This document shows, in pieces, positions 20,872 through 36,764 of a stretch of 64,000 nt of DNA. Numbering within the stretch: position 1 is the stretch's first letter; each line of letters begins with the position of its first letter. Under the pieces are notes generated by a model, which had not been told where the DNA came from, ran no database searches, and worked only from the letters and a program-made list of their open reading frames with translations. The stretch comes from Candidatus Levyibacteriota bacterium (GTDB lineage: Bacteria > Patescibacteriota > Microgenomatia > Levybacterales > UBA12049), in contig JACOXU010000001.1 in assembly GCA_016182185.1 (NCBI GenBank), forward strand, positions 207,251-271,250, read 5' to 3'. The position numbers and the translations under genes are program-made.

Positions 20872-20895
20872 TGGTAATGGCTTATTTAGGATCCG

Positions 20896-21756
20896 CTAAG
20901 GTAAGGTAGCTAAATATCTTATCAATGCAGTTCTCCATGGAGGCAAAACAACACCCAAAGATTTTGCGCTTGTATTCTTAAGAGAGGACACTACGGGAAT
21001 TCTTATACCTTTAAAAACTCCTTTTCTGTCTACAGGAACAATTTCTAAATTAAGCCTTCTTAATTTAACAATTTCCTGTGCAATTTTTACCCAAGAGCAA
21101 TAACCGGTGTTTACCAAATGATAAATTCCTGAACTTGCTTTTTTTTCCAATAATTCTAGTACTCCGCTTGCCAAGTCTTCTGCGTACGCTACGCTTACAA
21201 TTTGCTCCGATGAGATCTCCAAAGTTTTTTTGTTTTTCGCCTCATTTAATATATACAGTATGAAATTTCCTTTTTTAGCTCTACTTCCTCTCTGTCCTCC
21301 AAAAACTCCGCATGTTCTTATTATAATCGTATCCGAATTATAATTAATTGAAGCGATTTCTCCTGCAAATTTTGATAGTCCATAAATTTGCAAAGGGTTT
21401 GGTATATCTTTTTCAACATACGGACCCTCCTTGTCCCCATCGAAAACCCAACTCGTACTAAAATGAACAAATTTTATTTTTTTTTGACTGCATAAATCTC
21501 CTATGTTTCTTACAGCCAAGGTATTAATATTAAAGGCTTTTTGAGGATACCTCTCGCAATTTAATACTACATGATATGCGGCAGTATTAATAACAATTTC
21601 CGGTCTGACTCTATCGATCTTTTTTTTTAGTCTATCAAAATTAGTAATATCTAATTCTTGTTTACTAAAAGCGTGTATTTCATGTCCGTAAATATTAGAA
21701 ATGCGTTCAATTTGGGCGCCTATCTGACCATTTTTACCTAAAAGCAATATTCTCAT
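20896..21756 (-). CDS. RmlD-family (dTDP-4-dehydrorhamnose reductase-like) nucleotide-sugar 4-reductase
   Basis: MRILLLGKNGQIGAQI...INTAAY...NINTLAVRNI...YGLSKFAGE (YxxxK) follows RmlD/RfbD. Its substrate may be a CDP-sugar, given its neighbours. Confidence 0.65.
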   Translation of the reverse strand: MRILLLGKNGQIGAQIERISNIYGHEIHAFSKQELDITNFDRLKKKIDRVRPEIVINTAAYHVVLNCERYPQKAFNINTLAVRNIGDLCSQKKIKFVHFSTSWVFDGDKEGPYVEKDIPNPLQIYGLSKFAGEIASINYNSDTIIIRTCGVFGGQRGSRAKKGNFILYILNEAKNKKTLEISSEQIVSVAYAEDLASGVLELLEKKASSGIYHLVNTGYCSWVKIAQEIVKLRRLNLEIVPVDRKGVFKGIRIPVVSSLKNTSAKSLGVVLPPWRTALIRYLATLP

Positions 21757-21762
21757 TTTTTT

Positions 21763-22212
21763 TCATTTCATGACAATATCCCAGGAATATGGGACTTTTT
21801 GACTTAATGGATCTATTCTAATTATCTCTTTCTCATTGTATGGATGCGTAGAGCAATTAATAAGTACTGCTGGTTTTACGCCGATCGTTTTATAACCATT
21901 AATTACTCCCGGGGGAATTTGTACTAGGCAGTAATTATCTTCTCCAACAAATATTTCCTGAAGTCTCTTGTATGTTTTTGAATTCTTCCTATCATCAAAT
22001 AGGACCAGCTTAATCATTCCCTCCGCAACACAATAGTTTAGTGTCATTTTTTTGTGTTTATGCCAGCCTTTAATAATTCCCGGATAGCTTTTGGAAAAAT
22101 AGACTTCTCCAAAACGCTCGAACTCCCTATCGTCCTCTCTTAACATATGCATAATTGTGCCTCTTTCATCTGGGATTTTACTCAATTTTTTAATGTGGAC
22201 TCCGTCTATCAT
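21763..22212 (-). CDS. RmlC-like cupin sugar 3,5-(or 5-)epimerase
   Basis: DERGTIMHM..., KGWHKHKK (compare RGLHFQ) and a LNYCVAEGMIKLVLFDDR core; about 150 aa. Confidence 0.5.
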   Translation of the reverse strand: MIDGVHIKKLSKIPDERGTIMHMLREDDREFERFGEVYFSKSYPGIIKGWHKHKKMTLNYCVAEGMIKLVLFDDRKNSKTYKRLQEIFVGEDNYCLVQIPPGVINGYKTIGVKPAVLINCSTHPYNEKEIIRIDPLSQKVPYSWDIVMK

Positions 22213-23240
22213 ATCCAGTAAAGTTTTTTGTTTATTTTACGACTATCCAGTAAATATTTCAATTTTTTCATTCTGAAATAATCCGCGCTCTTAAGTTCCG
22301 CCGCAGTCAATTTGGTTTCCTTAAAAAATTTTATCAACTCACTAATACTCTTTTGCAAGTTCATCTTGAATCTGAATTTTGGAAATTTTGTGTTAAACTT
22401 GTAAAAATTCATTTTATAACTTCTTCTATCTCTGCTCTTCTTGTCGCCGAAAACTATTTTACATTCAGGCAATTGTCCATGTATCTCTTGAGCGATATTA
22501 ATAATTAAATAGTTTTGGCTATTTTCTCCTACCAGAAATACTTGATTGTGCACAAGCAACCTCTGACTCTCTATCATTAGCATAAAAACGCGGGATAAAT
22601 CTTTTACATGAATTACAGGACGCCAAGCTCTTCCATCGGATAGAAGAATTATCTTACGGTTAGCTATAGCACAGGCCACAAGATTATTAACCACAAGATC
22701 CAATCTTATGTTGGGAGAATAACCATGAACTGTCGGGTTACGCAGAATAATAGGAGAAAAATTTTCATTAGACAATTCCAGCAATGCTTTTTCTGTCTGA
22801 ACTTTGGTTTTTGCGTAACTGGTCAAAGGGTTGACTGAATCCTCCTCTGTTACCGAAGCTTTAAATTTATTTCCATAAACACTACAAGAAGAGGAAAATA
22901 TAAATCTCTTAACTCCTGTCTGCTTACTTAATTCTGCTAGTCGAACTGAAGCCGAAAAGTTTATTTCGCGAGTTAAGGCAGAATTTAGCTCAGCCATCGG
23001 ATCATTGGACAGAGCTGCTAGATGAACAACAGAGTCAACTCCTTCTAAATCCCTTTTCTCCAGTTTTCGAATATCTTTTTTGAGTCTTGGGTAGGAAAAC
23101 TTTTTCTTATTACTCACAAAATAGTCGGTGTCGCAACCGACAACAGAATATTTTTTGTGAACGAGCATAGGAACCAATACTGCTCCGATATAACCTTGAT
23201 CGCCGGTAACCAAAATTTTTTTCATAACTTTCTCTACCAA
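22209..23240 (-). CDS. NAD-dependent epimerase/dehydratase (SDR); candidate CDP-sugar dehydratase or reductase
   Basis: VTGDQGYIGAVL (GxxGxxG), SSSCSVYG, YAKTK (YxxxK). It lacks the GHTGFKG N-terminus of canonical CDP-glucose 4,6-dehydratase, so the exact reaction is unresolved. Confidence 0.6.
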   Translation of the reverse strand: MVEKVMKKILVTGDQGYIGAVLVPMLVHKKYSVVGCDTDYFVSNKKKFSYPRLKKDIRKLEKRDLEGVDSVVHLAALSNDPMAELNSALTREINFSASVRLAELSKQTGVKRFIFSSSCSVYGNKFKASVTEEDSVNPLTSYAKTKVQTEKALLELSNENFSPIILRNPTVHGYSPNIRLDLVVNNLVACAIANRKIILLSDGRAWRPVIHVKDLSRVFMLMIESQRLLVHNQVFLVGENSQNYLIINIAQEIHGQLPECKIVFGDKKSRDRRSYKMNFYKFNTKFPKFRFKMNLQKSISELIKFFKETKLTAAELKSADYFRMKKLKYLLDSRKINKKLYWI

Positions 23241-24025
23241 ATTTTCCAGACAGGATTATCCACCCATTGTTTGTTCAGCTCTTCTAAATCTTGATAAGTA
23301 TCTACAGCCGACCAATAACCGTTGTGGGCATAAACAGCCAATTGTCTTATCTTAACTAAACGCTCGAGTGCAATTTCTATTGTTTCTTCTGGTTTCACGT
23401 ATTTTAAAAAGGACTTTTTAAAAACCATAAAACCCCCATTAACATATTGATTAAGAAGAGGCTTTTGTACAAAATTTTTGATGATGCCATCCTTATCCGC
23501 TATCACTAAACCCCACTTTGATTTAGGATGTACACCTGTAATAGCGCCAACTGTTTTTTTTGATTTAAAATAAGATAACAATTTAAGTATGTTTATATTA
23601 CCTATACCATCTCCATAGGTTGCCATAAAAATGTCTGACTTGATATATTTTTTAACGCGGAGCAAACGTTCTCCAGTTAGGGTTTCAAGTCCTGTATTAA
23701 CAAAAGTAATTTTAAAATTTTCATGCTTTTCGACACTTCTTCGATAAATTATTTTCCTACCCGTTTTTACTTTAATAGTAAAATCATGAATAAGATACTC
23801 TTCATTTAGAAAGTAGCTTTTAATATAGTCTCCCTTATAGCCTAAAGCGATAATAAAATTATTAAATCCGTAATGAGAATAAATTTTCATGATATGCCAA
23901 AGAATCGGTTTCTCTCCGACAAGCACCATTGGTTTTGGACGAAATTCTGTTTCTTCTTTCATTCTAGTCCCTTGTCCGCCACAAAAAATAACAATAGGAA
24001 TATTCATGATTAACGAGTATAGCAT
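23234..24025 (-). CDS. rfbF: glucose-1-phosphate cytidylyltransferase
   Basis: IVIFCGGQGTRM...RPKPMVLVGEKPILWHIMKIYSHYGFNNFIIALGYKGDYIKSYF...GGFMVF...W.AVDT and a C-terminal PVWKIW match RfbF/DdhA closely. It is the first gene of the leftward operon. Confidence 0.8.
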   Translation of the reverse strand: MLYSLIMNIPIVIFCGGQGTRMKEETEFRPKPMVLVGEKPILWHIMKIYSHYGFNNFIIALGYKGDYIKSYFLNEEYLIHDFTIKVKTGRKIIYRRSVEKHENFKITFVNTGLETLTGERLLRVKKYIKSDIFMATYGDGIGNINILKLLSYFKSKKTVGAITGVHPKSKWGLVIADKDGIIKNFVQKPLLNQYVNGGFMVFKKSFLKYVKPEETIEIALERLVKIRQLAVYAHNGYWSAVDTYQDLEELNKQWVDNPVWKIW

Positions 24026-24030
24026 AGCTA

Positions 24031-24060
24031 ATTCTACCTTGTCGAATATTTTAATTTCAA
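24031..24060 (-). promoter_or_regulatory. sigma70-like promoter of the 24-kb leftward operon; leaderless
   Basis: On the minus strand: TTGAAA (24060-24055), an 18-nt spacer, TAGAAT (24036-24031), then 5 nt to the ATG at 24025. Confidence 0.4.
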
Positions 24061-24067
24061 GTATAAT
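24039..24067 (+). promoter_or_regulatory. sigma70-like promoter; near-leaderless transcript for 24076..25290
   Basis: TTGTCG (24039-44), a 17-nt spacer, TATAAT (24062-67); the ATG is 8 nt downstream. It overlaps the leftward promoter face-to-face. Confidence 0.45.
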
Positions 24068-24075
24068 CCTGAATA

Positions 24076-25290
24076 ATGATTAGCAGTCCAAAAAAAATAA
24101 GAATCCCATATGCTTTGGCTGTATATGATGAGAAAGAAAAAAAACGAATTATAAAAGTTTTAGACGAACACAGAACCAATCTTGGGAGTGAAACTATTTC
24201 GTTTGAGAAAAGTGTGGCAAGACTTTTTGGTAAAAAATTTGGGGTAATGGTAAATTCCGGATCTTCGGCAAATTATCTCGCAGTTGAGTTACTTCAGCTT
24301 CCTCCCGGATCAGAAGTGATCACTCCTCTTTTGACTTTCTCAACAACGGTTGCACCACTTATTCAGCACCGCCTTATTCCAGTTTTTGCAGACGTTGAAC
24401 CAGGTAAATATACGATTGACATAAATCAAATCGAAAAACTCATCTCAAAAAAAACAAAAGCTTTAATGATTCCGCTACTTTTAGGTAATGTGCCAGACAT
24501 GCATGAACTCGCAGGTCTTGCCAAAAAATACAAACTACGATTTATTGAGGACTCATGTGATACATTGGGTGCAAGGTTTAACAAAAAACCTACCGGAAGT
24601 TTTTCCGATATTTCTACTACTAGCTTTTTTGGGTCACATATTATAACTACCGGAGGGAATGGAGGCATGATCTTGATGAATAAATCTAAATGGAAAGACA
24701 GAGCGAAAGTTTTAAGAGGTTGGGGAAGAAGTTCTTCCCTTTTTAGTGAGTCAGAGCAAATTTCAAAACGTTTCAAAACAAAGATAGGTGATATTCCATA
24801 TGATGCTAAATTTATATTTGAAGAGATTGGATATAATTTCCTTCCTTCGGAAATTGGCTCCGCCTTTGGTAACGAGCAGCTTAAAAAACTTCCGACATTC
24901 AGAAGAAAAAGGAGAATACATTTTGCAAGATTACGGAAATTTTTTAAAAAGTATGAAGAATTTTTTATCCTTCCCATACAAAACCCCTCTGCGGAAACTC
25001 AATGGCTCGCTTTCCCGCTGACGATTAGGAAAGAGTCTCCTTTTTCCAGAATGGAAATTACTACATATCTTGAAAAAAATAATGTTCAAACTCGTCCAAT
25101 TTTTACGGGGAGCGTTCTTAGGCAACCTGGCTTTAGAAACATAGTTCATCGCTCTGTTAATAATGGGGCTCCAGTGACTCGCGAAGTTATGGAACGAGGT
25201 TTTCTAATAGGTTGTCATCATGGACTTGAAGAAAAACATATAGAAAAGCTGAAGGAACTTTTCAGGAGATTTTTAAAACGGTACGCTTAA
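24076..25290 (+). CDS. DegT-family PLP/PMP enzyme, second E1-like sugar 3-dehydrase paralog
   Basis: VNSGSSANYLA; the active-site segment SFFGSHIITTGGNGG has His in place of Lys, as in 14173..15384. Confidence 0.6.
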   Translation: MISSPKKIRIPYALAVYDEKEKKRIIKVLDEHRTNLGSETISFEKSVARLFGKKFGVMVNSGSSANYLAVELLQLPPGSEVITPLLTFSTTVAPLIQHRLIPVFADVEPGKYTIDINQIEKLISKKTKALMIPLLLGNVPDMHELAGLAKKYKLRFIEDSCDTLGARFNKKPTGSFSDISTTSFFGSHIITTGGNGGMILMNKSKWKDRAKVLRGWGRSSSLFSESEQISKRFKTKIGDIPYDAKFIFEEIGYNFLPSEIGSAFGNEQLKKLPTFRRKRRIHFARLRKFFKKYEEFFILPIQNPSAETQWLAFPLTIRKESPFSRMEITTYLEKNNVQTRPIFTGSVLRQPGFRNIVHRSVNNGAPVTREVMERGFLIGCHHGLEEKHIEKLKELFRRFLKRYA

Positions 25291-26750
25291 ATTTTAATCA
25301 ACTTTTTAATTTTATAAATACGAACATCTCCAAACTTAGCGGCCATCATATAGTTTTCATCGAGGAATTCATAAAACGGCCAGTCATTAAGAGAAGGTAC
25401 CTGCGGATAATCGACGTGATTTAATTTACTATCGATAACAAATTTAGGAGGATCCATTTCAATTTCTCGGGCGCTTTTGTCGTAAGGTTTAAGAAGCCAT
25501 GGAATAGGCCACAAATACTTATTCGCTGGAAGGCGCTGACTTAAAAAAAGTATATAGTGATTTCCAAGATTCATAATCTTTTCGTCTTTAACCGTATTCT
25601 TCTTAAGCCACACCACAGCTTTCAAATCGTCTTTATTATAATCTACAATATTGTATGGTTTTCCTGGAAAAGATTGGATGTACTCAAAAAGGTTTTGTAC
25701 GTAAGGAATTGAAACAAGTGTGAAAACGATCAGAATAATAAATGACGTTTTAGAAAAAAGGCCGAAGTTTTTGTCGGAGAATTTTGATGACATTGAAATG
25801 AGCTTTGCGAATAAAAATCCGTATCCGACTGAAGAAATGACAAAAAGACCGCGCAAACGATTGATATAAAAGCTCGGTAAAAGTCCAAAAAGAAGCCCGA
25901 ACGCAAACAAGACTAACACAATTACGGCTTCTCTTTCAAATGATGATAAATATTTTTTCTTGTAGATGAAAAGTAAAGGAAAAACAAAAGATGTAAAAAT
26001 AAAAGCGACTTTTAGTCCTTCAGAAGCTGATGCTACGGGCGCATCTTTTGCATATGTTGTTAGATTAAATAAAATGTTCCAGTAAAAGAAATCGATGAAT
26101 GCATTCTGTAAAAAAAAATATAGTGAAATAATCCCTATTACAGAACTGAGTCCTAGAGAAAACCACCAAATTTCTATATTTAATGCCCATCTCTCTTCCC
26201 TGATTTTTTTTACGAAAAGATATATAAATATAACAGGAGCAAGAACAGCAACAACTTGTTTTGTCATAATAGCGGCGCCTATAGATGCGCCGCTTAAAAA
26301 AATGTATTTATCTTTATTTGTTTTTATATACCGCACGAAAAGATACAAGGAGATTGAAGAGAAAAACGCAACAGTTACTTCTTCAAGCTGTGAGTCGGAA
26401 AAGAAAGGAAGGTAGAAAATCGTAAAAAACAAAACGGCAAAAAATCCCGATTTCTGTGAAAGATAGCTTCCGCTTTTGTAGACAAAAAAAAGAGTTAATA
26501 AAACGGTTAATAAAAAATACAGTCTGTAGGCAAAGAATGTATAACCGAAAGTCGTATAGAATCCAGTTAATATAAACTGCATAAGTGGAGTATGGTGATA
26601 AACAATATCTCTATATAAAACGAGGCCATTTTTAATAAGATATGGGACAGTTATATGAATAAGTTGTATGGGTAAGGAAAGTCCCAGATAGACGTAGGCA
26701 AAAAATGAACAAAGAAGAACAAACGCTACTACCAAAAGGATGTGTCGCAT
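25287..26750 (-). CDS. polytopic membrane protein, putative GT-C glycosyltransferase (487 aa)
   Basis: At least 11 TM helices with a conserved early loop (LYRDIVYHHTPL). It is convergent with, and overlaps, the plus-strand gene at TTAA. Confidence 0.4.
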   Translation of the reverse strand: MRHILLVVAFVLLCSFFAYVYLGLSLPIQLIHITVPYLIKNGLVLYRDIVYHHTPLMQFILTGFYTTFGYTFFAYRLYFLLTVLLTLFFVYKSGSYLSQKSGFFAVLFFTIFYLPFFSDSQLEEVTVAFFSSISLYLFVRYIKTNKDKYIFLSGASIGAAIMTKQVVAVLAPVIFIYLFVKKIREERWALNIEIWWFSLGLSSVIGIISLYFFLQNAFIDFFYWNILFNLTTYAKDAPVASASEGLKVAFIFTSFVFPLLFIYKKKYLSSFEREAVIVLVLFAFGLLFGLLPSFYINRLRGLFVISSVGYGFLFAKLISMSSKFSDKNFGLFSKTSFIILIVFTLVSIPYVQNLFEYIQSFPGKPYNIVDYNKDDLKAVVWLKKNTVKDEKIMNLGNHYILFLSQRLPANKYLWPIPWLLKPYDKSAREIEMDPPKFVIDSKLNHVDYPQVPSLNDWPFYEFLDENYMMAAKFGDVRIYKIKKLIKI

Positions 26751-27470
26751 TTAAAAATATCCTAAAGCCCGAAGTCTTTTCATGATTACTTCTCTATCCT
26801 TTGCTCGTCCAGACCTTTCATCTCCCCCAGACTTTGCTGGTTTTGTAAATTCTTTCTCGCCCAGAGACCTGTACCCCAAATCGTATAATGAGATGTAGGG
26901 AACATTTTTACTATGAATGTACTCCCATATATCTTCTTCTGTCCAATGAAGAAGCGGGTGAATCCGGATATGATCTTCTCGCTTGGAAAAATATTTCTCA
27001 TCTATTCTTTCCTTATGCTCGTCCCATCGAATTCCAATAACAAGAGCGGGCAGTTTGTGTTCTTTTACCGCCTGTTTTAGAAGAATAATTTTCATCATAC
27101 TTGCAAAGGTTACCCTATCCCTTTTTGTTTTTTGTTTTTTATACTCGGATGCTAATTTTTTCGAGGGCTTTATAGTAATTAGGTTAAGATTCCACATTCT
27201 GTTTGTCCTTTCTATAAAATTGTAAACCTCCTCAAAATCTAATCCCGTATCCAGAAATAAAACAGGAAATTTTGCTTTTGCTCCAAACATTTCTCGAATT
27301 AAATGAAGTAGGACCGTGGAGTCCTTACCTCCTGTCCAGAATATTGCCATCTGCTCCCCATGCGCTTTAAACGCTTCATTTAATTTCTCTCTACTTTTAG
27401 CAATCTTTTTACTAAGAGAGGTGATTAATTTTTTTTTCATTTTTTTATTTTTATTTTTATTTAATTTCAT
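26751..27470 (-). CDS. CysD-like PP-loop ATP pyrophosphatase (PAPS reductase/sulfate adenylyltransferase subunit 2 family)
   Basis: WTGGKDSTVLLHL is the SGGKDS PP-loop. LFLDTGLDFEEVY matches the CysD HVDTGWKF region. The C-terminus ERSGRAKDREVIMKRLRALGYF resembles the E. coli CysD C-terminus (ERQGRVIDRD...KKRQGYF). Confidence 0.55.
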   Translation of the reverse strand: MKLNKNKNKKMKKKLITSLSKKIAKSREKLNEAFKAHGEQMAIFWTGGKDSTVLLHLIREMFGAKAKFPVLFLDTGLDFEEVYNFIERTNRMWNLNLITIKPSKKLASEYKKQKTKRDRVTFASMMKIILLKQAVKEHKLPALVIGIRWDEHKERIDEKYFSKREDHIRIHPLLHWTEEDIWEYIHSKNVPYISLYDLGYRSLGEKEFTKPAKSGGDERSGRAKDREVIMKRLRALGYF

Positions 27471-27487
27471 AAATCTTTAATCATATT

Positions 27488-27516
27488 AGTTTATCAGTGA
27501 AAACATATACTGTCAA
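27488..27516 (-). promoter_or_regulatory. candidate sigma70-like promoter for 26751..27470
   Basis: On the minus strand: TTGACA (27516-27511), a 17-nt spacer, TAAACT (27493-27488), then 17 nt to the ATG. It lies back-to-back with the plus-strand promoter. Confidence 0.3.
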
Positions 27517-27521
27517 CCTAA

Positions 27522-27550
27522 TTGACTTATGAAGAGTCCTTATTTATACT
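27522..27550 (+). promoter_or_regulatory. sigma70-like promoter; leaderless transcript for 27557..28252
   Basis: TTGACT (27522-27), a 17-nt spacer, TATACT (27545-50), then 6 nt to the ATG at 27557. Confidence 0.5.
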
Positions 27551-27556
27551 TCTGTA

Positions 27557-28252
27557 ATGAACAGAATAAAACCAACAGTTTCTATTATTGTCCCTCTTTA
27601 TAACGACAAGAAATTTATTCTCGAAACTCTAAAAAGAATCGAAAAAGCAAAAATTCCGGGATTTAAAAAAGAAATAATTGTCGTCGATGATTATTCAACA
27701 GATGGAGGGCGCGAACTTATTAAAAAATATAAAAACAAATATAAAATCATTCTTCACAAAAAAAATATCGGGGTCGGCGGCGCATTACGCTCGGGCATTA
27801 AGGTGGCGACAGGAGAATATATTGTAAGACAAGACGATGATCTTGAATATGACCCGAATGATATTTTTTACCTTCTTCATCCGCTCATAACAAACCAGGC
27901 TGACATAGTATATGGATCCCGAACCCTAAATAAAAATAATGATTATTCTAAAAAATCCTACTATTGGGGAGGAAGACTACTTAATCTAATTTTTAACATC
28001 TTATATTTAAATACCATAAGCGATTTCATCACGGGTTCAAAAGTTTTTAAAAGAAGTGTATTTAACAATTTGCACCTTGAGACAAATGGGTTTGAGATTG
28101 AATCTGAAATATCGGCAAAAGCCACCAAGGAAAAATACCGGATAGTAAGCCTGCCTATAGCGTATCGCTCCCGAAGTTTTGAAGAGGGTAAAAATATCCG
28201 TTGGTACCATGCTTTTTCAATAATAGTGACTTTGATTAAATATAGGTTCTAG
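27557..28252 (+). CDS. GT2-family glycosyltransferase (DPM1-like, soluble)
   Basis: VSIIVPLYNDKKFI...IIVVDDYSTDGG...QDDDLEYDP. Confidence 0.8.
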   Translation: MNRIKPTVSIIVPLYNDKKFILETLKRIEKAKIPGFKKEIIVVDDYSTDGGRELIKKYKNKYKIILHKKNIGVGGALRSGIKVATGEYIVRQDDDLEYDPNDIFYLLHPLITNQADIVYGSRTLNKNNDYSKKSYYWGGRLLNLIFNILYLNTISDFITGSKVFKRSVFNNLHLETNGFEIESEISAKATKEKYRIVSLPIAYRSRSFEEGKNIRWYHAFSIIVTLIKYRF

Positions 28253-28267
28253 ATAACATTTTCAATA

Positions 28268-28296
28268 TTGCTACAATTTTCCTAATCGTGTATTAT
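28268..28296 (+). promoter_or_regulatory. sigma70-like promoter; leaderless transcript for 28304..28846
   Basis: TTGCTA (28268-73), a 17-nt spacer, TATTAT (28291-96), then 7 nt to the ATG at 28304. Confidence 0.45.
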
Positions 28297-28303
28297 TTAT
28301 AGA

Positions 28304-28846
28304 ATGAAATTTATAACTCTCTTATCCTTGTTTTTCGTAACTTTATTTTTAGCAAATACACCATCGCTTTATGCGCAGGGGTCAACGGAATCTGCAAGCC
28401 CAAAGGTAGATTACACGCTTCCCTATCCTGGAATACTTCCTGATCATCCGCTTTATAAACTAAAAGTTCTGCGGGATAAATTAATTCCTTTATTTATCAG
28501 TGCTCCGCAAAAAAAGGTTGAATTTTATTTACTTCAAACAGATAAAGGTATCGAGGCAACCAGAGTGCTTGTAAAAAAGGGTGATATTGAGCTTGCTAAA
28601 GAAACGGGACTCAAGGCAGAAAATAATTATACAATCCTTTCATATATTGTCAAAGCAAATAAATTGGATATATCCGATAAAGAGTATGCTAAGCTTTATT
28701 TGGCGGCTGAGAAACATCAGGATGTATTACGCACGATTATTTCATCAGTTCCCAAGAAGGATCAAAAGATCTTTCAGACAATACTATATTTTTCTGAGAA
28801 GAATGAGAAAGAAATCAAAAATACACAAAATTCTCTCATCAAGTAA
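28304..28846 (+). CDS. small secreted protein with a conserved LPYPG(I/F)xPxxPxYK N-terminal motif (paralog A)
   Basis: Signal peptide (MKFITLLSLFFVTLFLANTPSLYAQG), then YTLPYPGILPDHPLYKLKVLRDKLI. It is homologous over its full length to 57806..58333. Confidence 0.6.
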   Translation: MKFITLLSLFFVTLFLANTPSLYAQGSTESASPKVDYTLPYPGILPDHPLYKLKVLRDKLIPLFISAPQKKVEFYLLQTDKGIEATRVLVKKGDIELAKETGLKAENNYTILSYIVKANKLDISDKEYAKLYLAAEKHQDVLRTIISSVPKKDQKIFQTILYFSEKNEKEIKNTQNSLIK

Positions 28847-28895
28847 AACTCGATCCATTCTTCTAAGTCACCGCTTTCAAACAGTTAAGGAATTT

Positions 28896-30599
28896 GTGGA
28901 GAAAAATTTTTACTCAATTCTTCTTGTTTCTCTTATTATCGGAATTTCTATAAGTCATATCCTATACGTCATAAAGACCTATCAATACCCCCAATGGGAC
29001 GAACATCCATACCTAGATTATGCTGTCAATGTGCTCCCCCTTATAAAACATCCAACAATTTCCATATGGAACGATATACTGCATATTACAAAATTTAGAC
29101 AACCGCTTTATTCAGTTATTATTGCCATTGTACTTAGTATCTTTGGAACAATACATGCCTACAAAACTATACTCATTCTAAACGGCATTTTCTATTCCTT
29201 AACAATAATTGGAACATATTTTTTGGCAAAACACTTTATGAATCGCTTTCTTTCGCTTCTAGCAGCATACAGCTTTGCCTTTTATGGATTTCCGCTTTTT
29301 TATCTTCATTTCACCGTAAGTGAAACAGCCACGACAACATTTATTATTCTTTCGTTACTCTTTCTTATGAAATCAGATATCTTTAAAAAAAATATCTACA
29401 CCATATTATTTTCAATTTTTGCCAGTTTTAGCTTACTTGTTAGATGGGAAAGTATTATTTTCCTCATCGGCCCATCGCTATGGATTTTTTTGTTTTATAT
29501 AAAATTTGTTTTAAAACAGAATAAACTGAATGTCATTCGCATTGTATCCACGGTTAAGCCTATGCTTCTCATAATATTTTTCTTTGTTATTCCTACGCTC
29601 CTCCTCTATTACGTGCCCAATTTTAACTATTTTAAACAATATGTAGAAGAAAATAGAATGTATGGACCAATCTGGGCACCTGGATCAATAAAAAACCCCT
29701 TTTCCCCATCTTCATTAATTTGGTACTCAAATGTCTTAGCGCAGCAAACGATTTTCTTTTGGTTATTATTTATCGCCGGATTTTTACTAAGCGTATCAAA
29801 AATAAGAAAAAATGGCTTTCTTGTTATAACCTTCCTGACGCCATATATAGTTTTGACAATTGGTGGAGTTTGGAAAGACGACAGATTTATTGTTCCAATT
29901 TATCCATACATGGCTATTTTATCTATAACGTGTATAGATATGATTAAATTAAAAAAAATAAAATATTTGTTGATAGGCAGTGTTATCGTAATCGGATTTC
30001 TTAATTTTTTGGGCGCAAGTTGGGGCATTGGCCCTATGAAATTCAGCGTAACAGGAAACCGTACAACTGTTCCGCATTCAATTCTCGTCCCAATGCCAAT
30101 CGGGCATCCCAGGCGGGTGTGGTTTGCTCCAATTTCCTGGCCCCCAAGAGAAAACGAAGGAAATTCAGATTTAATCCTCAAGACAATTCTGGAAGATAAT
30201 AAAAATGAGAAAAGACCAAATGTCCTTCTTACATTTTCTATCCCTCAGATAGAAGGACCTTTATATAAAACTGTTCTCTATGAACAAAGAGATATTATTG
30301 ACCTTCGCGCTCTTTGGGGATTCAATGCCGATGATTACGAAATATTGTTTAACAGAATCAAAAATGCTGACTACATCTTGATTAAAGAAGAAGGCGCCTT
30401 TGATGATCAGTTTGATGGCAAACTTGACTTGCTGCAAACCTTTAACGAAACCATACGATCTTCTAATGTCCGGCTTCCCATGGCGTACCAGAAATTAAAA
30501 GAGGTAAACATTCCTTTTGATGAAAGTCGAGTATATATTTATAAAAGAATTCGCTCTCTGTCTCAAGAAGATATTGAAACATTTGAAGAAATTTTTTAG
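28896..30599 (+). CDS. polytopic membrane protein, putative GT-C glycosyltransferase with a C-terminal soluble domain; start uncertain
   Basis: The track ORF 28581..30599 overlaps the previous gene by 266 nt. An in-frame GTG at 28896, preceded by AAGGA, gives MEKNFYSILLV... without overlap. The first loop has YPQWDEHPYLDY (DE motif). Confidence 0.45.
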   Translation: MEKNFYSILLVSLIIGISISHILYVIKTYQYPQWDEHPYLDYAVNVLPLIKHPTISIWNDILHITKFRQPLYSVIIAIVLSIFGTIHAYKTILILNGIFYSLTIIGTYFLAKHFMNRFLSLLAAYSFAFYGFPLFYLHFTVSETATTTFIILSLLFLMKSDIFKKNIYTILFSIFASFSLLVRWESIIFLIGPSLWIFLFYIKFVLKQNKLNVIRIVSTVKPMLLIIFFFVIPTLLLYYVPNFNYFKQYVEENRMYGPIWAPGSIKNPFSPSSLIWYSNVLAQQTIFFWLLFIAGFLLSVSKIRKNGFLVITFLTPYIVLTIGGVWKDDRFIVPIYPYMAILSITCIDMIKLKKIKYLLIGSVIVIGFLNFLGASWGIGPMKFSVTGNRTTVPHSILVPMPIGHPRRVWFAPISWPPRENEGNSDLILKTILEDNKNEKRPNVLLTFSIPQIEGPLYKTVLYEQRDIIDLRALWGFNADDYEILFNRIKNADYILIKEEGAFDDQFDGKLDLLQTFNETIRSSNVRLPMAYQKLKEVNIPFDESRVYIYKRIRSLSQEDIETFEEIF

Positions 30600-30961
30600 A
30601 TTTTATTTCTTAAATCCCACAGATATTGTCCAAGACCTAAAACCATCAGACCGTAAACGATATTTCCCAGGTTCTCCGAAAGAGGGCTATCAATGGTTAA
30701 TATATTTATCACTGCGTTTACCCCAAGAAGAGTCATGGTAAAAATAACCGTATGTCTTGCCTTTAAATTAAAAAGAAGTAAAATTGCAATATAGAAAACG
30801 ATAGCTGAAATTATTGGATCACCAAACACTAAGTTTAAATATGGAACATTTTTTGAGAAATCAAAGAAGTAAAGTAAGAAAAGCAGGAATATAATTTTTG
30901 TAAAATTTCTTCGTATAAATTCAGAACTTTTGTTCCGTAAATAATCTAATCTATTTTTCAT
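30596..30961 (-). CDS. small 3-4-TM membrane protein; last gene of the long leftward operon
   Basis: A 121-aa hydrophobic ORF. It is convergent with the plus-strand gene and its stop codon overlaps at TTAG. Confidence 0.4.
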   Translation of the reverse strand: MKNRLDYLRNKSSEFIRRNFTKIIFLLFLLYFFDFSKNVPYLNLVFGDPIISAIVFYIAILLLFNLKARHTVIFTMTLLGVNAVINILTIDSPLSENLGNIVYGLMVLGLGQYLWDLRNKI

Positions 30962-33900
30962 TTTTAATCAAAACTATAGCTAGCGAACCTAAGACAATAA
31001 AAACGCTCGAAAATGTAATTAAAAATCCAATCCAGGTTATGATCTGAGGAAAATAAATTACTGCCAGAAAACTATTATCATCAAGATTATTCGGGTCGAT
31101 ATACCACGCGTTTGCGTAATTATTGGCCATGTAATGATTGGATTTTTCAAGTTCTCTGCCTTTAATAACTGTGTATATTTGCATTGTTGCTTGACAAACT
31201 ATATTTGTACAATCTTTAAGCGGCATTTTATTGGGCATTTTAAATAGCCTCCAACCCTCAGAGTAACCCTGTTTCAGTAAAATAAAAAATGGATTTTTTT
31301 GAGATTTTATATTAAATGCATAAAACGTAGGATTATGTTTTTGTAAATCAGGAAAAATTGTTGACGAAACAGGAATAACATCTCTCCTGGTTGGCAAAAG
31401 CATTAGGATTGGATCTTTTATCAACTGATGCATTTTTAATTTTTCAATATTTATAGATTGAGAGTTATTTCGCGGATCTGAATAATTAAATCCTAAAATA
31501 ATTTCTCTAGTCCTGTTTGGGGTCTCAAATATAATTCGTTGTTCTTCGTCTTTTTTGGGAGTCAGCACTTTAGATGCAACTGTTTGTTTCTTTTCACCCT
31601 GTAATACGGCAGTGACGCTTATTTTAGTATCTCTAGTCGAATTCTCTTTATATTTAAAGCTCAATAGATATTTCTGATTTGGTTTTATAAATGTAGGAGA
31701 AATATAAGAAGGATCGCCGTAGGACGCGATATCTACATTAGAAACGGAAAGCAAATTTTTATATTGAGGCGTATTAACGGAAACTTTATAAGTTCCCTTA
31801 TCTAGGGAAATCTTTCCGTAATTAAACCCGAGATTCGGATCAGAAGATTCTATGTCTTTATTTTCTTTCGTATTTTCTAACACAATGCTTGATTTGACAG
31901 AATTCTCATCAAAAATATTTGCATATTCAATGGGGTCTTCTGAGACTAGGTAAAAAGTGTATGAATCTAGTTTGGGAATATTAACTGTAAATTTTAAAGA
32001 ACTTTCCTGGGATGTCCGCCAAAAATTTTTATTTCCGAGAATCCGTAATTTTTCTATTTTTTCATATATAGATTCGAGCTTCTTATCAAATTCACTTGAA
32101 TGAGAAAGTTCATAGCTTAAATTTCTAGTTTCATTCGCCATTGCAGTCGTAAAACTTTCCATGTACTGATTGTAGGGATAATTAATCGGCTCATTAAGAA
32201 TCTCTATACTTCTGATCTTATAAATATCATCAAGTAGTATTTCTACATCAGCGAAAGTTTCGTTTATTACTTTTGCGTATGTGGACTGAGAAAACTTATT
32301 TTCTGTTTTTGATAAAATAAGTGATAAATTTTTTATTTCGTCTATCCTCCTTAGTGCGTATCCTGCCATAAGAGAAGTTTTCTTCTGGTTAGTTCCTGAA
32401 ATTTTAACATTTATTCTCTCCTTTAATCTTAGAAAGCTGTAAAAAGGGGATGTAGAAAGCATGTTTGATTTTTGAATAGGAAAACTTGGAGGAGAAATAT
32501 CAGTGTCGCAAAAATTGCACTCTGCTGTGATTACTGCTCTGTCAATTGGCGTTTTTATTTTTTCAGTATCGACTGTATTTGGAATTACAATTGTATTAAC
32601 GTTTAAAAGTTTTATAAATTTATCCAGATTCGTTACATCGTTTGTATAGGACACGGCTTGTTTTACATCAAGTGGTAAAAATTTGTAACCATCTCTTTTT
32701 GGCAACTCGTAAACAACCCATCTATCAAATATATAAACAGGCTTTATCCAAGGCGATTCTGAGAGTATATTCTCGTAATAACTTACTGGGAAATCATCTA
32801 GATTTGTTTGCACGTCTTTTCTGAATAAAATAAACTTAACATCGAGTAAATCAGCAATTGAAATGGTTTTTTTCTCATCTTTTGATTCAATTACCTTGTA
32901 AAACTGATCGACGATATCATACTGTTCCTTGCTTAAAAAGATGCTATCTGAAATGACAGATTTTTCTGTCAGAAGGTTTATAAAGGGAGTTAGGCTCCAA
33001 TAATTCCATGTATATTGATCCGCCCGTCCTCTTTGAAGCCTAGGGTAAAGCAGAATTTTGTTATTATCTTTTTTCTCATTAATCCACTTTTGGAAGTCAA
33101 AAGAATATTGAGGAGGACGAACCATTGTCGAAAGGGGCGTATCCCATTTGAAAAAAACCCCTGTAAAAAACGGGTAGCTATAGATACCTGTCAGAAGTAG
33201 AAAAAGTACCAACGTAAGTAACTTGATGATTTTTTTAAACAATTCTCTTTTAAAATTTATTTGAGATATTTTTTCAATAAACGTAGAAAAGGAATAAGAT
33301 ATCAAAACCGCATATCCAATCCAAAGCATATAGCCAAACTTGTAAAATGGGGTACGTATTGTGGCGAAACCGGGAATATTAAGTAGACTTGAGAATATAA
33401 AACCCAAAGGAGATCTGGTTCCGCTCATGAAAAATATTGTCAAAAGTAATAAACCAAAGAAAAAACCTATAAAAACTTTATCCTTACGATTTACTTTCTT
33501 TAGAATTAATGAAGTCAATACCATTAGAGACCAAACAAAACTAATAATAATAAAAAACGGATTTTTCAAAAGTATATTTGAATAAGGATGGTTTTCAATG
33601 TCGTACCAGCCCGAGAATCCTTGAAGTCTTAGTAAATTATCAAACGTCGCATATCTTGTAATTATCTCAACCCAGCTTGAAACACCCGCAACTCCTCCTG
33701 CTAAATTAAGTTCTGCTGTATAATTATTTTTTACATAATTACCAAAGGGTAAAATCCAATAAGCATTAAATAAAATAAAAAATATTATTAACACTGTGAT
33801 AAATTTACCGCAGGCGAAAAAATTTTTCCTTCTATGTTTTTGTGAAAATGAGATAAACCCAAAGTAGATAAAAAACCAGATCAGAGCTAGTCCTAAACCC

Positions 33901-34505
33901 GCAACTATTGGAATACCGACTCCTCCCGTACCATTAAAAATGGTAAGAAGAAATGCTCCAATTATACCCAGTAAAAGAAAATTATCTCCTTTTGTAAAAA
34001 TTTTTATTAAAAATGCAATAAGTATTGGGGTAACAATTACAAAGGAGATTTCTTGCTTTAAGGCCACAAACCAAGCTTGAAGCAAATAGTGATTTAGACT
34101 ATAAAAAATACTACCTGAGAGAAGAAAATATAAACTATATTTTCTTGGAAAATCTTTATTGTCTATAATTGTTTTTAAAAGATAAAACATCGATAAGCCT
34201 GGCAAAACAAACCAAATCATAAAGACTATTATTTGTCCAGTTCTAATGGGAACTCCTAAAAGTTGAAGAATTGCCTCCGGAAGATACGTAGCGATAGCCC
34301 CTATGTTAAATGATGCATCAGAGCCTAAATTCAATGTATCAGACCAGATAAAAATTCTATTAATAACTCTTGAAAGAGGATCTAGCGAATAACCCATATC
34401 ATGACCGGAAGCAATAAATCCCGGCTTAAACCAAAGTAGAGGAATTAAACCAATTAAAAAAAGGGGAAATAATGGAATAAGAGCTTTCAATCTATTGCGC
34501 CACAT
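30951..34505 (-). CDS. giant (1184 aa) polytopic membrane protein, AftD/arabinofuranosyltransferase-like GT-C architecture
   Basis: About 12 N-terminal TM helices with an early loop FIASGHDMGYSLDP, a 600-aa soluble domain and a C-terminal TM anchor (ITWIGFLITFSSVFIVLGSLAIVL). Confidence 0.45.
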   Translation of the reverse strand: MWRNRLKALIPLFPLFLIGLIPLLWFKPGFIASGHDMGYSLDPLSRVINRIFIWSDTLNLGSDASFNIGAIATYLPEAILQLLGVPIRTGQIIVFMIWFVLPGLSMFYLLKTIIDNKDFPRKYSLYFLLSGSIFYSLNHYLLQAWFVALKQEISFVIVTPILIAFLIKIFTKGDNFLLLGIIGAFLLTIFNGTGGVGIPIVAGLGLALIWFFIYFGFISFSQKHRRKNFFACGKFITVLIIFFILFNAYWILPFGNYVKNNYTAELNLAGGVAGVSSWVEIITRYATFDNLLRLQGFSGWYDIENHPYSNILLKNPFFIIISFVWSLMVLTSLILKKVNRKDKVFIGFFFGLLLLTIFFMSGTRSPLGFIFSSLLNIPGFATIRTPFYKFGYMLWIGYAVLISYSFSTFIEKISQINFKRELFKKIIKLLTLVLFLLLTGIYSYPFFTGVFFKWDTPLSTMVRPPQYSFDFQKWINEKKDNNKILLYPRLQRGRADQYTWNYWSLTPFINLLTEKSVISDSIFLSKEQYDIVDQFYKVIESKDEKKTISIADLLDVKFILFRKDVQTNLDDFPVSYYENILSESPWIKPVYIFDRWVVYELPKRDGYKFLPLDVKQAVSYTNDVTNLDKFIKLLNVNTIVIPNTVDTEKIKTPIDRAVITAECNFCDTDISPPSFPIQKSNMLSTSPFYSFLRLKERINVKISGTNQKKTSLMAGYALRRIDEIKNLSLILSKTENKFSQSTYAKVINETFADVEILLDDIYKIRSIEILNEPINYPYNQYMESFTTAMANETRNLSYELSHSSEFDKKLESIYEKIEKLRILGNKNFWRTSQESSLKFTVNIPKLDSYTFYLVSEDPIEYANIFDENSVKSSIVLENTKENKDIESSDPNLGFNYGKISLDKGTYKVSVNTPQYKNLLSVSNVDIASYGDPSYISPTFIKPNQKYLLSFKYKENSTRDTKISVTAVLQGEKKQTVASKVLTPKKDEEQRIIFETPNRTREIILGFNYSDPRNNSQSINIEKLKMHQLIKDPILMLLPTRRDVIPVSSTIFPDLQKHNPTFYAFNIKSQKNPFFILLKQGYSEGWRLFKMPNKMPLKDCTNIVCQATMQIYTVIKGRELEKSNHYMANNYANAWYIDPNNLDDNSFLAVIYFPQIITWIGFLITFSSVFIVLGSLAIVLIKNEK

Positions 34506-35178
34506 AAAAAACAGTCGAGTTTATGAAGGGAAGATTGCTGTTAAATGGAAAAATTATGTTTAATCTGGAATCAATTCTGTATAAAAATGGAAAAAATGTA
34601 ACAGGTTGAAATTTTACCTCTTTAAAACCGGCATCTTTCATAAACCTCCTCCACTTTTTAGGATGTAAAACATTGACATGAGTATTAATCTCTATATATT
34701 TTTTAAAAGGGTATGGAGTAGTAGCGATCAACTTTCCATTCTTATTAAGTGATTTCTTTATGTTAATCAAACCTGATAAAGGATCAGTCAGATGCTCTAG
34801 TACTTCAAATGCGAAAATAAAATCGAATTTTTCCCTGATAGGAATTTCCTCCTGTACATCACACACCAAAAAATTTACCTCTGGGGAAAGTTTTTTCGCT
34901 CTACTTATAGCATACCTTGATATATCTACTGCCCATGCATTGCTTCCCTTCTCCTGAAAAATGTCTGCTATGCCACCTATCGCACATCCTACTTCCAATA
35001 CTTTCCTTGCCTTCTTAAATGAAACTGAAAAGTGTTGCTCAAAAAATGAAAGCTGCCCTTTAAACCAATACCTGTTTCTTTTTAACGCGCTTGAATCAAA
35101 GTCTCCAACTGCATTAAACTGTTTTATAAAATAGCCTTTGTCGTAATCTTTTTTTTTATTCTTAAGTTTTTTGTTCAT
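34492..35178 (-). CDS. class I SAM-dependent methyltransferase
   Basis: VLEVGCAIGGIADIF...AVDIS...FDFIFAFEVLEHL. Confidence 0.75.
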   Translation of the reverse strand: MNKKLKNKKKDYDKGYFIKQFNAVGDFDSSALKRNRYWFKGQLSFFEQHFSVSFKKARKVLEVGCAIGGIADIFQEKGSNAWAVDISRYAISRAKKLSPEVNFLVCDVQEEIPIREKFDFIFAFEVLEHLTDPLSGLINIKKSLNKNGKLIATTPYPFKKYIEINTHVNVLHPKKWRRFMKDAGFKEVKFQPVTFFPFLYRIDSRLNIIFPFNSNLPFINSTVFYVAQ

Positions 35179-36719: not shown

Positions 36720-36764
36720 ATGTTTTAAAGGGTAAAATTTTCTAGGTATTTACCAGAAACAATG

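What the first reader, a model, noticed from the sequence alone, without database searches (positions are those of the whole stretch)
28304..28846. Paralogous small secreted proteins with a conserved LPYPG-x-P-xx-P-x-YK motif, each preceding a GT-C membrane protein
28304..28846 and 57806..58333 both have signal peptides. They share YxLPYP(G/S)xxPxxPxYK(L/I)xxxxDK(L/I) plus downstream conserved positions. Each sits immediately upstream, in transcriptional order, of a polytopic GT-C-like gene (28896..30599 and 56679..57809). They could be secreted acceptor substrates, meaning glycosylation targets, or periplasmic partners or chaperones of the membrane transferases.
Basis: seen in the sequence. 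Interest (0 to 1): 0.5.

Follow-up and report, generated by a model that had tools for sequence, protein, structure and literature searches.

The report
Two DUF5667 secreted proteins near glycosyltransferases
Two small secreted helical proteins of the uncharacterised DUF5667 family lie in a sugar-polymer gene cluster of a Levybacteria genome; one is paired with a membrane mannosyltransferase-like gene in nearly every relative and is probably its outer-face helper, while the other's similar position looks incidental.

Summary
ORFs 28304..28846(+) and 57806..58333(-) are paralogues: 29% identity, E 2e-12, and still E 1e-11 without the signal peptides. Both carry the YxLPYP..P..P.YK...DK motif, and each precedes a polytopic membrane gene. 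The family is already catalogued as Pfam DUF5667 (PF18915). It has at least 2,885 clusters at 50% identity, mostly in Microgenomates (CPR), with no paper and no solved structure.

AlphaFold gives both a signal peptide plus a confident five-helix bundle.

- **p2-type (57806..58333):** an MptA/B-family GT-C gene lies directly downstream in 71 of 73 related loci, usually with an ATGA stop/start overlap. This is the best-kept junction of the operon, which supports a dedicated extracytoplasmic partner of that enzyme.
- **p1-type (28304..28846):** it sits in glycosylation clusters, but polytopic neighbours are no commoner next to it than elsewhere in those clusters.
- **A third subfamily** sits beside nrdR and ribonucleotide reductase genes with no sugar genes nearby.

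The core residues (Y, K, D, DK, K, KH.E) are conserved in all subfamilies, so the basic biochemistry is family-wide rather than GT-C-specific. Function remains inferred. Moderate interest.

The parts
28304..28846 (+). p1: DUF5667 protein, 180 aa, canonical ('p1-type') subfamily
   Evidence: ORF. Pfam PF18915 at 29.8 bits, above the cut-off of 27. 250 homologues, almost all 170-210 aa and carrying PF18915. AlphaFold2 mean pLDDT 89.4.
28304..28375 (+). p1 signal peptide (residues 1-24, ...SLYA|QG)
   Evidence: Hydrophobic helix 2-17 in the model. Ala24 is nearly invariant at -1. A variable T/S/A/P-rich linker follows. Cleavage is inferred.
28412..28480 (+). p1 conserved motif YTLPYPGILPDHPLYKLKVLRDK (residues 37-59)
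   Evidence: Invariant Y37, L39, P42, Y51, K52, D58. Conserved in all subfamilies. Modelled as a coil running into helix 1.
28454..28840 (+). p1 five-helix bundle (H51-64, 68-91, 95-118, 125-148, 151-179)
   Evidence: AlphaFold2, pLDDT 87-99 over this range. Carries the invariant K81, K104, K137 and H138.
27557..28252 (+). GT2 glycosyltransferase, first gene of the plus-strand trio GT2 - p1 - polytopic gene
   Evidence: Pfam Glycos_transf_2, E 1.3e-33. Promoter-like site at 27522-27550 and no terminator-like site inside the trio. GT2 is the commonest immediate neighbour of p1-type genes, adjacent in 13 of 31 loci.
28896..30599 (+). 567-aa polytopic membrane protein (GT-C-like, family F28) downstream of p1
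   Evidence: GTG start with AAGGA upstream. 9 predicted TM segments. No Pfam or PDB hit of its own. Its relative in L004 gives weak Glyco_transf_22 and PMT_2 hits. Weak NCBIfam LA_3751/LA_3752 hit.
57806..58333 (-). p2: DUF5667 paralogue, 175 aa, 'p2-type' subfamily
   Evidence: ORF. PF18915 at 25.2 bits, just under the cut-off. 606 homologues, and P0269 is 100% identical and annotated as Candidatus Levybacteria. AlphaFold2 mean pLDDT 86.6.
58262..58333 (-). p2 signal peptide (residues 1-24, ...PIFA|QSS)
   Evidence: Ala24 is invariant in 24 of 24 sequences while the hydrophobic region is variable. Cleavage is inferred.
58184..58252 (-). p2 conserved motif YVLPYPSFMPGSPFYKINLIKDK (residues 28-50)
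   Evidence: YVLPYP and M36, P37 are invariant in the p2-type alignment. The motif begins 3-4 residues after the predicted cleavage site.
56679..57809 (-). 376-aa MptA/B-family GT-C membrane protein, translationally coupled to p2 (ATGA overlap)
   Evidence: Overlap seen. Orthologues carry PF26314 MptA_B_family. Weak TIGR03459 MptA hit, E 6.4e-7. Directly downstream of the p2-type gene in 71 of 73 loci.
55063..56697 (-). 544-aa PTPS_related/YfhO-type GT-C, next gene in the p2 operon
   Evidence: Pfam result. Follows the Mpt-like gene in 38 of 55 loci.
58330..59325 (-). NAD-dependent sugar epimerase/dehydratase directly upstream of p2 (4-nt overlap)
   Evidence: Pfam Epimerase, E 3.5e-58. Directly upstream of the p2-type gene in 65 of 74 loci.
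32226..32492 (-). Possible degenerate DUF5667-like segment (residues about 672-760) inside the extracytoplasmic part of the 1184-aa AftD-like GT-C (30951..34505)
   Evidence: Pfam GT-C_AftD at 37.9 bits, plus DUF5667 at 22.9 bits, E 1.2e-4, residues 685-743. Same place in the L001 orthologue at 18.9 bits. hhalign against A1 gives probability 63%, E 7e-5, in register with the motif, but only 6% against A2. Suggestive only.

Best explanation
Both genes encode Sec-exported members of the DUF5667 family, each about 150 aa after cleavage. The fold is a five-helix bundle preceded by a Pro/Tyr-rich strand (Y-x-L-P-Y-P-x-x-x-P-x-x-P-x-Y-K).

The family-wide invariant residues are Y51, K52, D/E58, D80, K81, K104, K137, H138 and E140. 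By helix register they fall at roughly one level of the antiparallel bundle, so they probably form a single polar, mainly cationic site. Such a site would suit an anionic, phosphate-bearing ligand such as a polyprenyl-phosphate-linked sugar or a lipoglycan.

p2 belongs to a specialised subfamily that is made in step with an MptA/B-type GT-C mannosyltransferase-like enzyme (4-nt stop/start overlap). It most likely acts on the outer face of the membrane as that enzyme's dedicated accessory subunit, stabilising it or presenting donor or acceptor to it.

p1 is the canonical family member. It probably has the same basic biochemistry, but its position in front of a GT-C-like gene in this genome is most likely a feature of the local gene cluster rather than a dedicated pairing.

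Shown: homology, fold prediction, export signal, conserved pairing of p2-type genes with Mpt-like genes. Inferred: cleavage, the single binding site, the nature of the ligand, physical contact with the enzyme.
For: - Paralogy and family.
- Confident helical-bundle models for both proteins.
- Core residues conserved across the p1-type, p2-type, ribonucleotide-reductase-context and other subfamilies.
- p2-type followed by an Mpt-like gene in 71 of 73 loci, and by PF26314 genes in three annotated loci at 53-63% identity.
- An ATGA overlap in most pairs.
- Junction conservation: p2 to Mpt 97%, epimerase to p2 88%, Mpt to YfhO 69%, GT2 to epimerase 58%.
- Insertions occurred next to the pair but never inside it.
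- Mirror-tree partial correlation r(p2,Mpt|epimerase) = 0.55 against r(p2,epimerase|Mpt) = 0.18, with equal mean divergence of 0.46 for p2 and Mpt.
- A possible DUF5667-like module inside an AftD-like GT-C two genes from p1.
- Precedents for small outer-face partners of GT-C mannosyltransferases: LmeA with MptA (PMC7643837) and PIG-X/Pbn1 with PIG-M/Gpi14 (PMC9306709, PMC12653191).
Against: - No direct evidence of contact; co-folding could not be run.
- All p2-type loci are at least 49% identical to p2, so the pairing could partly reflect inherited gene order in one clade. Other junctions there are also 58-89% conserved.
- The converse, Mpt-like genes without a p2-type gene, was not tested.
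- The p1-type shows no specific pairing.
- A whole subfamily lies beside nrdR and ribonucleotide reductase genes with no glycosylation genes, and one member is fused to DUF4430. The conserved site therefore serves something not specific to GT-C enzymes.
- 17 other large GT-C proteins show no DUF5667 segment, and the AftD-like hit is below the Pfam threshold.
- The 'one level of the bundle' argument rests on helix register, not on coordinates.
Confidence: 0.45

Rival explanations
1. No functional link. DUF5667 proteins are general cell-envelope proteins of Microgenomates with a function unrelated to GT-C enzymes. Their adjacency to polytopic glycosyltransferase genes here reflects the gene density of a 64-kb glycan cluster and inherited gene order.
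For: - 15 of 55 window genes are polytopic.
- The p1-type has no enrichment of polytopic neighbours at distance 1.
- The ribonucleotide-reductase-context subfamily has no glycosylation genes nearby.
- The core site is conserved family-wide.
- All p2-type loci come from one moderately related clade.
Against: - The p2-to-Mpt junction is 71 of 73 and the best conserved in the block. Insertions flank the pair but never split it.
- The ATGA overlap is conserved.
- The partial correlation favours p2 with Mpt.
- The p1-type core clade is embedded in glycosylation clusters in nearly all 31 loci.
Confidence: 0.27
2. Acceptor substrates. The secreted proteins are glycoproteins that the neighbouring GT-C enzymes modify, on the T/S/P-rich N-terminal linker of p1-type proteins or on the Ser/Tyr of the SSYVLPYPS N-terminus of p2-type proteins.
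For: - The p1-type linker has a median of 20 aa and is rich in T, S, A and P, for example TPTPTP runs.
- PMT_2-type protein O-mannosyltransferase-like genes are frequent neighbours.
- The invariant mature N-terminus of p2-type proteins could be a recognition site.
Against: - Translational coupling to the enzyme gene implies roughly equimolar synthesis, which is unusual for a substrate.
- The whole 150-aa domain and a polar residue constellation are conserved, not only a sequon.
- MptA/B-family enzymes are known as lipoglycan mannan polymerases, not protein glycosylases (established knowledge; PMC7643837).
- The motif is equally conserved in the subfamily with no glycosylation genes nearby.
Confidence: 0.13
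3. Small-molecule or cofactor binding protein or enzyme. The conserved Lys/His/Asp/Glu/Tyr constellation is a catalytic or cofactor-binding site, for example for a corrinoid or a phosphorylated lipid carrier. The protein would act on its own in the extracytoplasmic space, and p2 would merely supply or process a substrate in the same pathway as the GT-C.
For: - Invariant polar residues across all subfamilies.
- A DUF5667+DUF4430 fusion next to DUF6580, ribonucleotide reductase genes and a cobalamin adenosyltransferase in other lineages. DUF4430 is known as the transcobalamin-like beta domain; this is from memory and was not tested here.
Against: - Fold hits are generic helical repeats with no specific relative.
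- Only one fusion was seen.
- The gaps of 110-350 nt to nrdR suggest separate transcription.
Confidence: 0.15

Closest known systems
Pfam PF18915, DUF5667 (domain of unknown function)
   Same: p1 scores above the gathering threshold (29.8 against 27 bits). p2 is a clear homologue of p1, and about half of its orthologues carry the precomputed PF18915 label. Length, signal peptide and helical content match the family.
   Different: Pfam gives no function. No paper in the searched library mentions DUF5667 or PF18915, and no structure is solved. The split into p1-type, p2-type and ribonucleotide-reductase-context subfamilies, and the p2/MptA_B pairing, are described here for the first time as far as these searches can tell.
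PIG-X / Pbn1, accessory subunit of GPI mannosyltransferase I (PIG-M/Gpi14, a GT-C enzyme)
   Same: A small protein whose soluble domain sits on the non-cytoplasmic face and which is needed for, and stabilises, a polyprenol-phosphate-mannose-dependent GT-C mannosyltransferase (PMC9306709, PMC12653191). This is the role proposed for p2.
   Different: No sequence or fold relationship was detected. PIG-X is membrane-anchored and eukaryotic. For p2 the interaction is inferred from gene order only.
LmeA, mycobacterial periplasmic protein that maintains MptA
   Same: A periplasmic, non-catalytic protein that supports the alpha-1,6-mannosyltransferase MptA, from the same GT-C family that p2's neighbour falls in (PMC7643837).
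   Different: No similarity to LmeA was detected here; that LmeA is a lipid-binding beta-rich fold is from memory. Whether lmeA lies next to mptA was not checked here. DUF5667 is an all-helical bundle.
Three-component (GtrA/GtrB/GtrC-type) extracytoplasmic glycosylation systems
   Same: The p1 neighbourhood holds a GT2, a small membrane protein with 2 TM segments by the hydropathy count used here (30596..30961) and GT-C-like enzymes. Six p1-type loci place a roughly 305-aa GT2 with 1-2 predicted TM segments directly downstream. That layout is typical of polyprenyl-phosphate sugar synthases, which is established knowledge.
   Different: Those systems have no known secreted helical component. 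The 121-aa protein has no GtrA hit.

Membership tests
Pfam DUF5667 (PF18915) | Whole-protein HMM score at or above the gathering threshold of 27 bits | tested here: met
   p1 scores 29.8 bits, E 8.4e-7, covering profile positions 1-98 of 99.
Pfam DUF5667 (PF18915) | The same threshold applied to p2 | tested here: inconclusive
   p2 scores 25.2 bits, E 2.2e-5, just under 27. It is nevertheless homologous to p1 (E 2e-12 and 1e-11). Many p2-type orthologues carry a precomputed PF18915 label, and the predicted fold is the same.
Sec-exported protein cleaved by signal peptidase I | N-terminal n/h/c regions with small residues at -3 and -1, and no lipobox Cys | tested here: inconclusive
   A hydrophobic helix at 2-17 or 2-18 appears in both models. 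Ala is invariant or nearly so at -1, and there is no Cys at +1. No dedicated predictor was available and cleavage has not been demonstrated, so an uncleaved signal anchor is not excluded.
MptA_B family GT-C (PF26314), for the gene after p2 | A match to the family model | tested here: inconclusive
   Orthologues at 48-57% identity carry PF26314 in the precomputed annotation. In the local Pfam scan the window protein and the other 18 members of alignment A4 gave no PF26314 hit. Only weak GT87, PMT_2 and EpsG hits appear in some members. TIGR03459 MptA scores 28.6 bits, far below its equivalog cut-off of 439.
GT-C fold glycosyltransferases, for both downstream genes | Polytopic membrane protein (8-13 TM) with a conserved acidic motif in the first extracytoplasmic loop | tested here: met
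   The two genes have 11 and 9 predicted TM segments. D100 is invariant in 'SYDIFNY' in the Mpt-like alignment. D35, E36 and H37 are invariant after TM1 in the 567-aa family. No structure-level confirmation was obtained.
Accessory subunit of a GT-C enzyme (functional class, as for PIG-X/Pbn1) | Physical complex with the enzyme, and dependence of the enzyme on it | not testable with these tools
   Only genomic evidence is available: 71 of 73 adjacency, ATGA overlap and a mirror-tree signal. Co-folding was not available.
Glycoprotein acceptor substrate | A covalently attached glycan that depends on the neighbouring transferase | not testable with these tools
   The only observation is the T/S/A/P-rich linker in p1-type proteins.

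The most novel reading that the evidence does not exclude
DUF5667 is a widespread CPR family of secreted helical-bundle proteins whose invariant Lys/His/Asp site binds polyprenyl-phosphate-linked or other phosphorylated envelope intermediates. Paralogues have been recruited repeatedly as dedicated outer-face subunits of GT-C glycosyltransferases: p2 with MptA/B-type enzymes, and a degenerate copy built into an AftD-like enzyme. This would be a bacterial counterpart of PIG-X/Pbn1 and a new class of GT-C cofactor.
Probability: 0.25. Interest if true: 0.6.

Novelty: new member of a known kind. Interest (0 to 1): 0.38.

Why it matters
CPR/Patescibacteria genomes are small, yet this one devotes a 64-kb stretch, including 15 polytopic proteins with 8 or more predicted TM segments (most of those scanned are GT-C-like), to surface glycan synthesis. 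Almost nothing is known about how these enzymes work or what they build.

A conserved, translationally coupled secreted partner for an MptA/B-type enzyme gives a concrete two-gene unit for co-expression, structure determination and activity assays. It would also attach a first functional context to a DUF with thousands of members.

The practical lesson for annotation is that only the p2-type subfamily should inherit a 'GT-C partner' label. The family as a whole occurs in unrelated contexts.

Tried and rejected
- **Sequence and profile searches against PDB.** None found for p1, A1, A2, the 376-aa protein, A4, the 567-aa protein or A5.
- **Literature.** No paper mentions DUF5667 or PF18915. Nothing relevant on CPR GT-C enzymes.
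- **DUF5667 modules fused to GT-C proteins.** 17 further large GT-C proteins from the loci have none. Local profiles built from A1, or from A1+A2+distant members, did not recover the AftD-like segment.
- **Last homologue search.** The query on the AftD-like segment returned nothing, not even the protein itself. That segment's family alignment therefore has only 3 sequences.
- **63321..63860.** This 179-aa ORF directly upstream of a PMT_2 gene is not a third hidden paralogue. It has no Pfam hit and hhalign probability 0.5%.
- **567-aa family against the Mpt-like family.** hhalign probability 5%.
- **Lipoprotein or sortase-type anchoring.** Rejected from the sequence: no lipobox Cys and no C-terminal sorting signal.

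Full report
**1. What is in the window**

The window is AT-rich (GC about 0.33) and almost every gene is on the minus strand. p2 is 100% identical to a protein annotated 'hypothetical protein HYT08_01475 [Candidatus Levybacteria bacterium]' on a 617-kb contig. The source is therefore a Levybacteria (Microgenomates, CPR) genome.

The 64 kb form one large glycan-biosynthesis region. It holds GT2, GT4, sugar epimerases, aminotransferase, methyltransferase, a Polysacc_synt flippase, and many polytopic proteins of PMT_2, PTPS_related/YfhO and AftD type. Fifteen of 55 ORFs have 8 or more predicted TM segments.

**2. Checking the observation**

Both ORFs exist at the stated coordinates. They are homologous over their whole length: 29% identity, E 2e-12. 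Only these two copies occur in the window.

- p1 is followed after 49 nt by a GTG-initiated 567-aa membrane protein.
- p2's stop overlaps the ATG of a 376-aa membrane protein (ATGA), and its own ATG overlaps the end of an epimerase gene.
- p1 lies in a three-gene plus-strand unit, GT2 - p1 - polytopic gene. A promoter-like site sits in the divergent gap upstream, and no terminator-like site lies inside the unit.

**3. The family**

p1 matches Pfam DUF5667 above threshold and p2 just below it.

- p1 has 250 homologues and p2 has 606 in the 90% identity database. Nearly all are 170-210 aa, and the named ones come from Levy-, Roizman- and Gottesmanbacteria and other Microgenomates.
- A profile of p1-type sequences finds 2,885 clusters at 50% identity with E of 0.001 or better. 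The 150 listed are almost all stand-alone proteins of this size.
- No paper in the library mentions the family and no relative has a solved structure.

p1 and p2 represent two distinct, well-conserved subfamilies (alignments A1 and A2; classification). Both occur together in the same contigs of other Levybacteria, for example the 253-kb and 446-kb contigs.

**4. Structure**

AlphaFold2 gives confident models for both: pLDDT 89.4 for p1 and 86.6 for p2. Each has an N-terminal hydrophobic helix, a disordered stretch, the Pro/Tyr-rich motif as a coil, then five helices. p2 has an extra beta-hairpin at 145-159, which carries its invariant W.PEK.

The signal-peptide region is variable, but the Ala at -1 is invariant or nearly so.
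- In p2-type proteins the invariant YVLPYPS starts 3-4 residues after the predicted cleavage site.
- In p1-type proteins a linker of about 20 aa, rich in T, S, A and P, intervenes.

The residues Y37, L39, P42, P46, Y51, K52, D/E58, D80, K81, K104, K137, H138 and E140 are conserved in all subfamilies. Counting along the antiparallel helices of the p1 model, K52, K81, K104 and K137/H138 fall at about the same level. I therefore infer a single polar, mainly cationic site next to the N-terminal strand. This is inference; I had no coordinates.

**5. Genomic context of the p2-type**

Three annotated loci at 53-63% identity show the same block: GT2 - epimerase - p2-type - PF26314 MptA_B_family (376-380 aa) - PTPS_related/YfhO GT-C - GT4.

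In 83 loci in all (80 from a metagenome scan plus the three annotated loci):
- An Mpt-like gene lies directly downstream on the same strand in 71 of the 73 loci with enough sequence.
- The two exceptions come from one organism and carry another polytopic gene there.
- Most pairs keep the ATGA overlap.

Junction conservation:

| Junction | Loci conserved | Fraction |
|---|---|---|
| p2 to Mpt | 71 of 73 | 97% |
| epimerase to p2 | 65 of 74 | 88% |
| YfhO to GT4 | 24 of 27 | 89% |
| Mpt to YfhO | 38 of 55 | 69% |
| GT2 to epimerase | 25 of 43 | 58% |

Extra genes have been inserted on either side of the pair but never within it.

On 39 complete triplets, p2 and Mpt distances correlate at r = 0.71. 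The partial correlation controlling for the epimerase is 0.55, against 0.18 for p2 with the epimerase controlling for Mpt. Mean divergence is identical at 0.46.

The window's 376-aa protein has 11 TM segments, an invariant Asp in the first loop and a weak MptA hit. No PF26314 hit came back from the local Pfam scan, either for it or for the other 18 members of alignment A4.

**6. Genomic context of the p1-type**

Forty loci from species-representative genomes were retrieved.

In the 31 core-clade loci, the whole neighbourhood of ten genes either side is a glycosylation cluster. Polytopic genes are no more frequent at distance 1 (21%) than at distances 2-4 (12-24%). A same-strand polytopic gene directly downstream occurs only in L001, the closest fully syntenic relative, and in L026.

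The commonest immediate neighbour is a GT2, adjacent in 13 of 31 loci. Six of these loci have a roughly 305-aa GT2 with 1-2 predicted TM segments directly downstream.

Nine more distant loci, plus L124, L125 and L127, show a different and itself conserved context. A stand-alone DUF5667 gene sits 110-350 nt upstream of nrdR and a ribonucleotide reductase. A cobalamin adenosyltransferase, DUF6580, an Rce1-like protease and class A PBPs are often nearby, and there are almost no glycosylation genes. One representative is a DUF5667+DUF4430 fusion.

In its motif details (G43, L45, P49, K54, R57) p1 resembles this canonical type more than it resembles p2.

**7. A possible fusion**

The 1184-aa AftD-like GT-C, two genes from p1, gives a sub-threshold DUF5667 hit at residues 685-743 of its extracytoplasmic domain (22.9 bits).
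- Its orthologue in L001 hits at the same place (18.9 bits), although that region is only about 25% identical between the two.
- A profile of three orthologues aligns to A1 in register with the motif at 63% probability, E 7e-5, but at only 6% to A2.
- Seventeen other large GT-C proteins have no such segment.

I treat this as suggestive only.

**8. Interpretation**

The best-supported reading is as follows.
- DUF5667 is an exported helical-bundle module with a family-wide conserved site.
- The p2-type paralogue has become the dedicated, co-translated partner of an MptA/B-type GT-C enzyme.
- p1 is the canonical paralogue, and its place in front of a GT-C-like gene is local.

The partner role has functional precedents in LmeA with MptA (PMC7643837) and PIG-X/Pbn1 with PIG-M (PMC9306709, PMC12653191), but there is no homology to either.

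The acceptor-substrate idea is not excluded. It fits poorly with translational coupling, full-length conservation, and the same motif occurring in lineages with no glycosylation genes nearby.

The main rival is that the pairing is inherited gene order in one clade. Co-folding and a genome-wide co-occurrence census would decide this.

**9. Novelty and score**

The family is catalogued and the genes are new members of it. What is new here is the subfamily structure and the strong p2-type/MptA_B coupling, which gives a testable functional hypothesis for part of a large DUF.

This is useful but not very surprising, and the mechanism remains inferred. Interest is 0.38.

Noticed in passing
window 32226..32492 (-), inside gene 30951..34505: The 1184-aa AftD-like GT-C has a sub-threshold DUF5667-like stretch ('SPFYSFLRLKERI...') in its large extracytoplasmic domain. 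It recurs at the same position in the L001 orthologue. hhalign probability is 63% against the p1-type profile.
   Followed up: partly
L029, L031, L032, L034-L038, L040, L124, L125, L127 (DUF5667 gene at about 10000 or 6000 in each): A third DUF5667 subfamily is conserved just upstream of nrdR plus a ribonucleotide reductase (class I/II barrel or NrdD/NrdG). A PduO-type cobalamin adenosyltransferase, DUF6580, an Rce1-like protease and class A PBPs are often nearby, and there are no glycosylation genes. Why a secreted protein keeps this position is unexplained.
   Followed up: partly
L124 5394..6317 (protein P0238): A DUF5667 + DUF4430 fusion (57 and 43 bits) lies next to a DUF6580 membrane protein and NrdD/NrdG. 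This hints at a ligand-binding, possibly corrinoid-related, use of the module in some lineages.
   Followed up: no
window 58333..58360 (-) and 54579..54606 (-): Heptamer tandem repeats occur at two sites: (TTCAAAA)x4 ending exactly at the p2 ATG, where it encodes the KFKIQN tail of the epimerase, and (TTCARAA)x4 inside the GT4 gene. That is 6 matches against 0.93 expected. Some p2-type homologues have N-terminal extensions that read like translations of similar repeats.
   Followed up: partly
window 28626..28653 (-): A perfect sigma-70 consensus (TTGACA, 16 nt spacer, TATAAT, 12 of 12) lies antisense inside the p1 coding sequence. It may be chance in AT-rich DNA, or an antisense promoter.
   Followed up: no
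window 1..64000: Nearly the whole window is one glycan-synthesis supercluster. Fifteen ORFs have 8 or more predicted TM segments (PMT_2, PTPS_related/YfhO, AftD-like, Wzy-like and unclassified), an unusual investment for a small CPR genome. The GT-C at 37808..40417 carries an F5/8 type C (discoidin) domain.
   Followed up: partly
window 63321..63860 (-): A 179-aa ORF with one TM segment overlaps by 4 nt the start of a PMT_2 GT-C gene (61750..63324). It has no Pfam family and is unrelated to DUF5667. It may be another small partner or a split gene fragment.
   Followed up: partly
L053 574..2859: A single 762-aa protein fuses an N-terminal GT2 domain to a PMT_2-type polytopic domain. A cytoplasmic transferase and a GT-C-like module share one chain.
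   Followed up: no
window 31926..32588 (-) as query: The large protein database returned no hit at all for the AftD-like segment, not even the protein itself, although p2 from the same genome is present. Either this gene is missing or differently called in the public annotation, or the word index failed on this composition.
   Followed up: no
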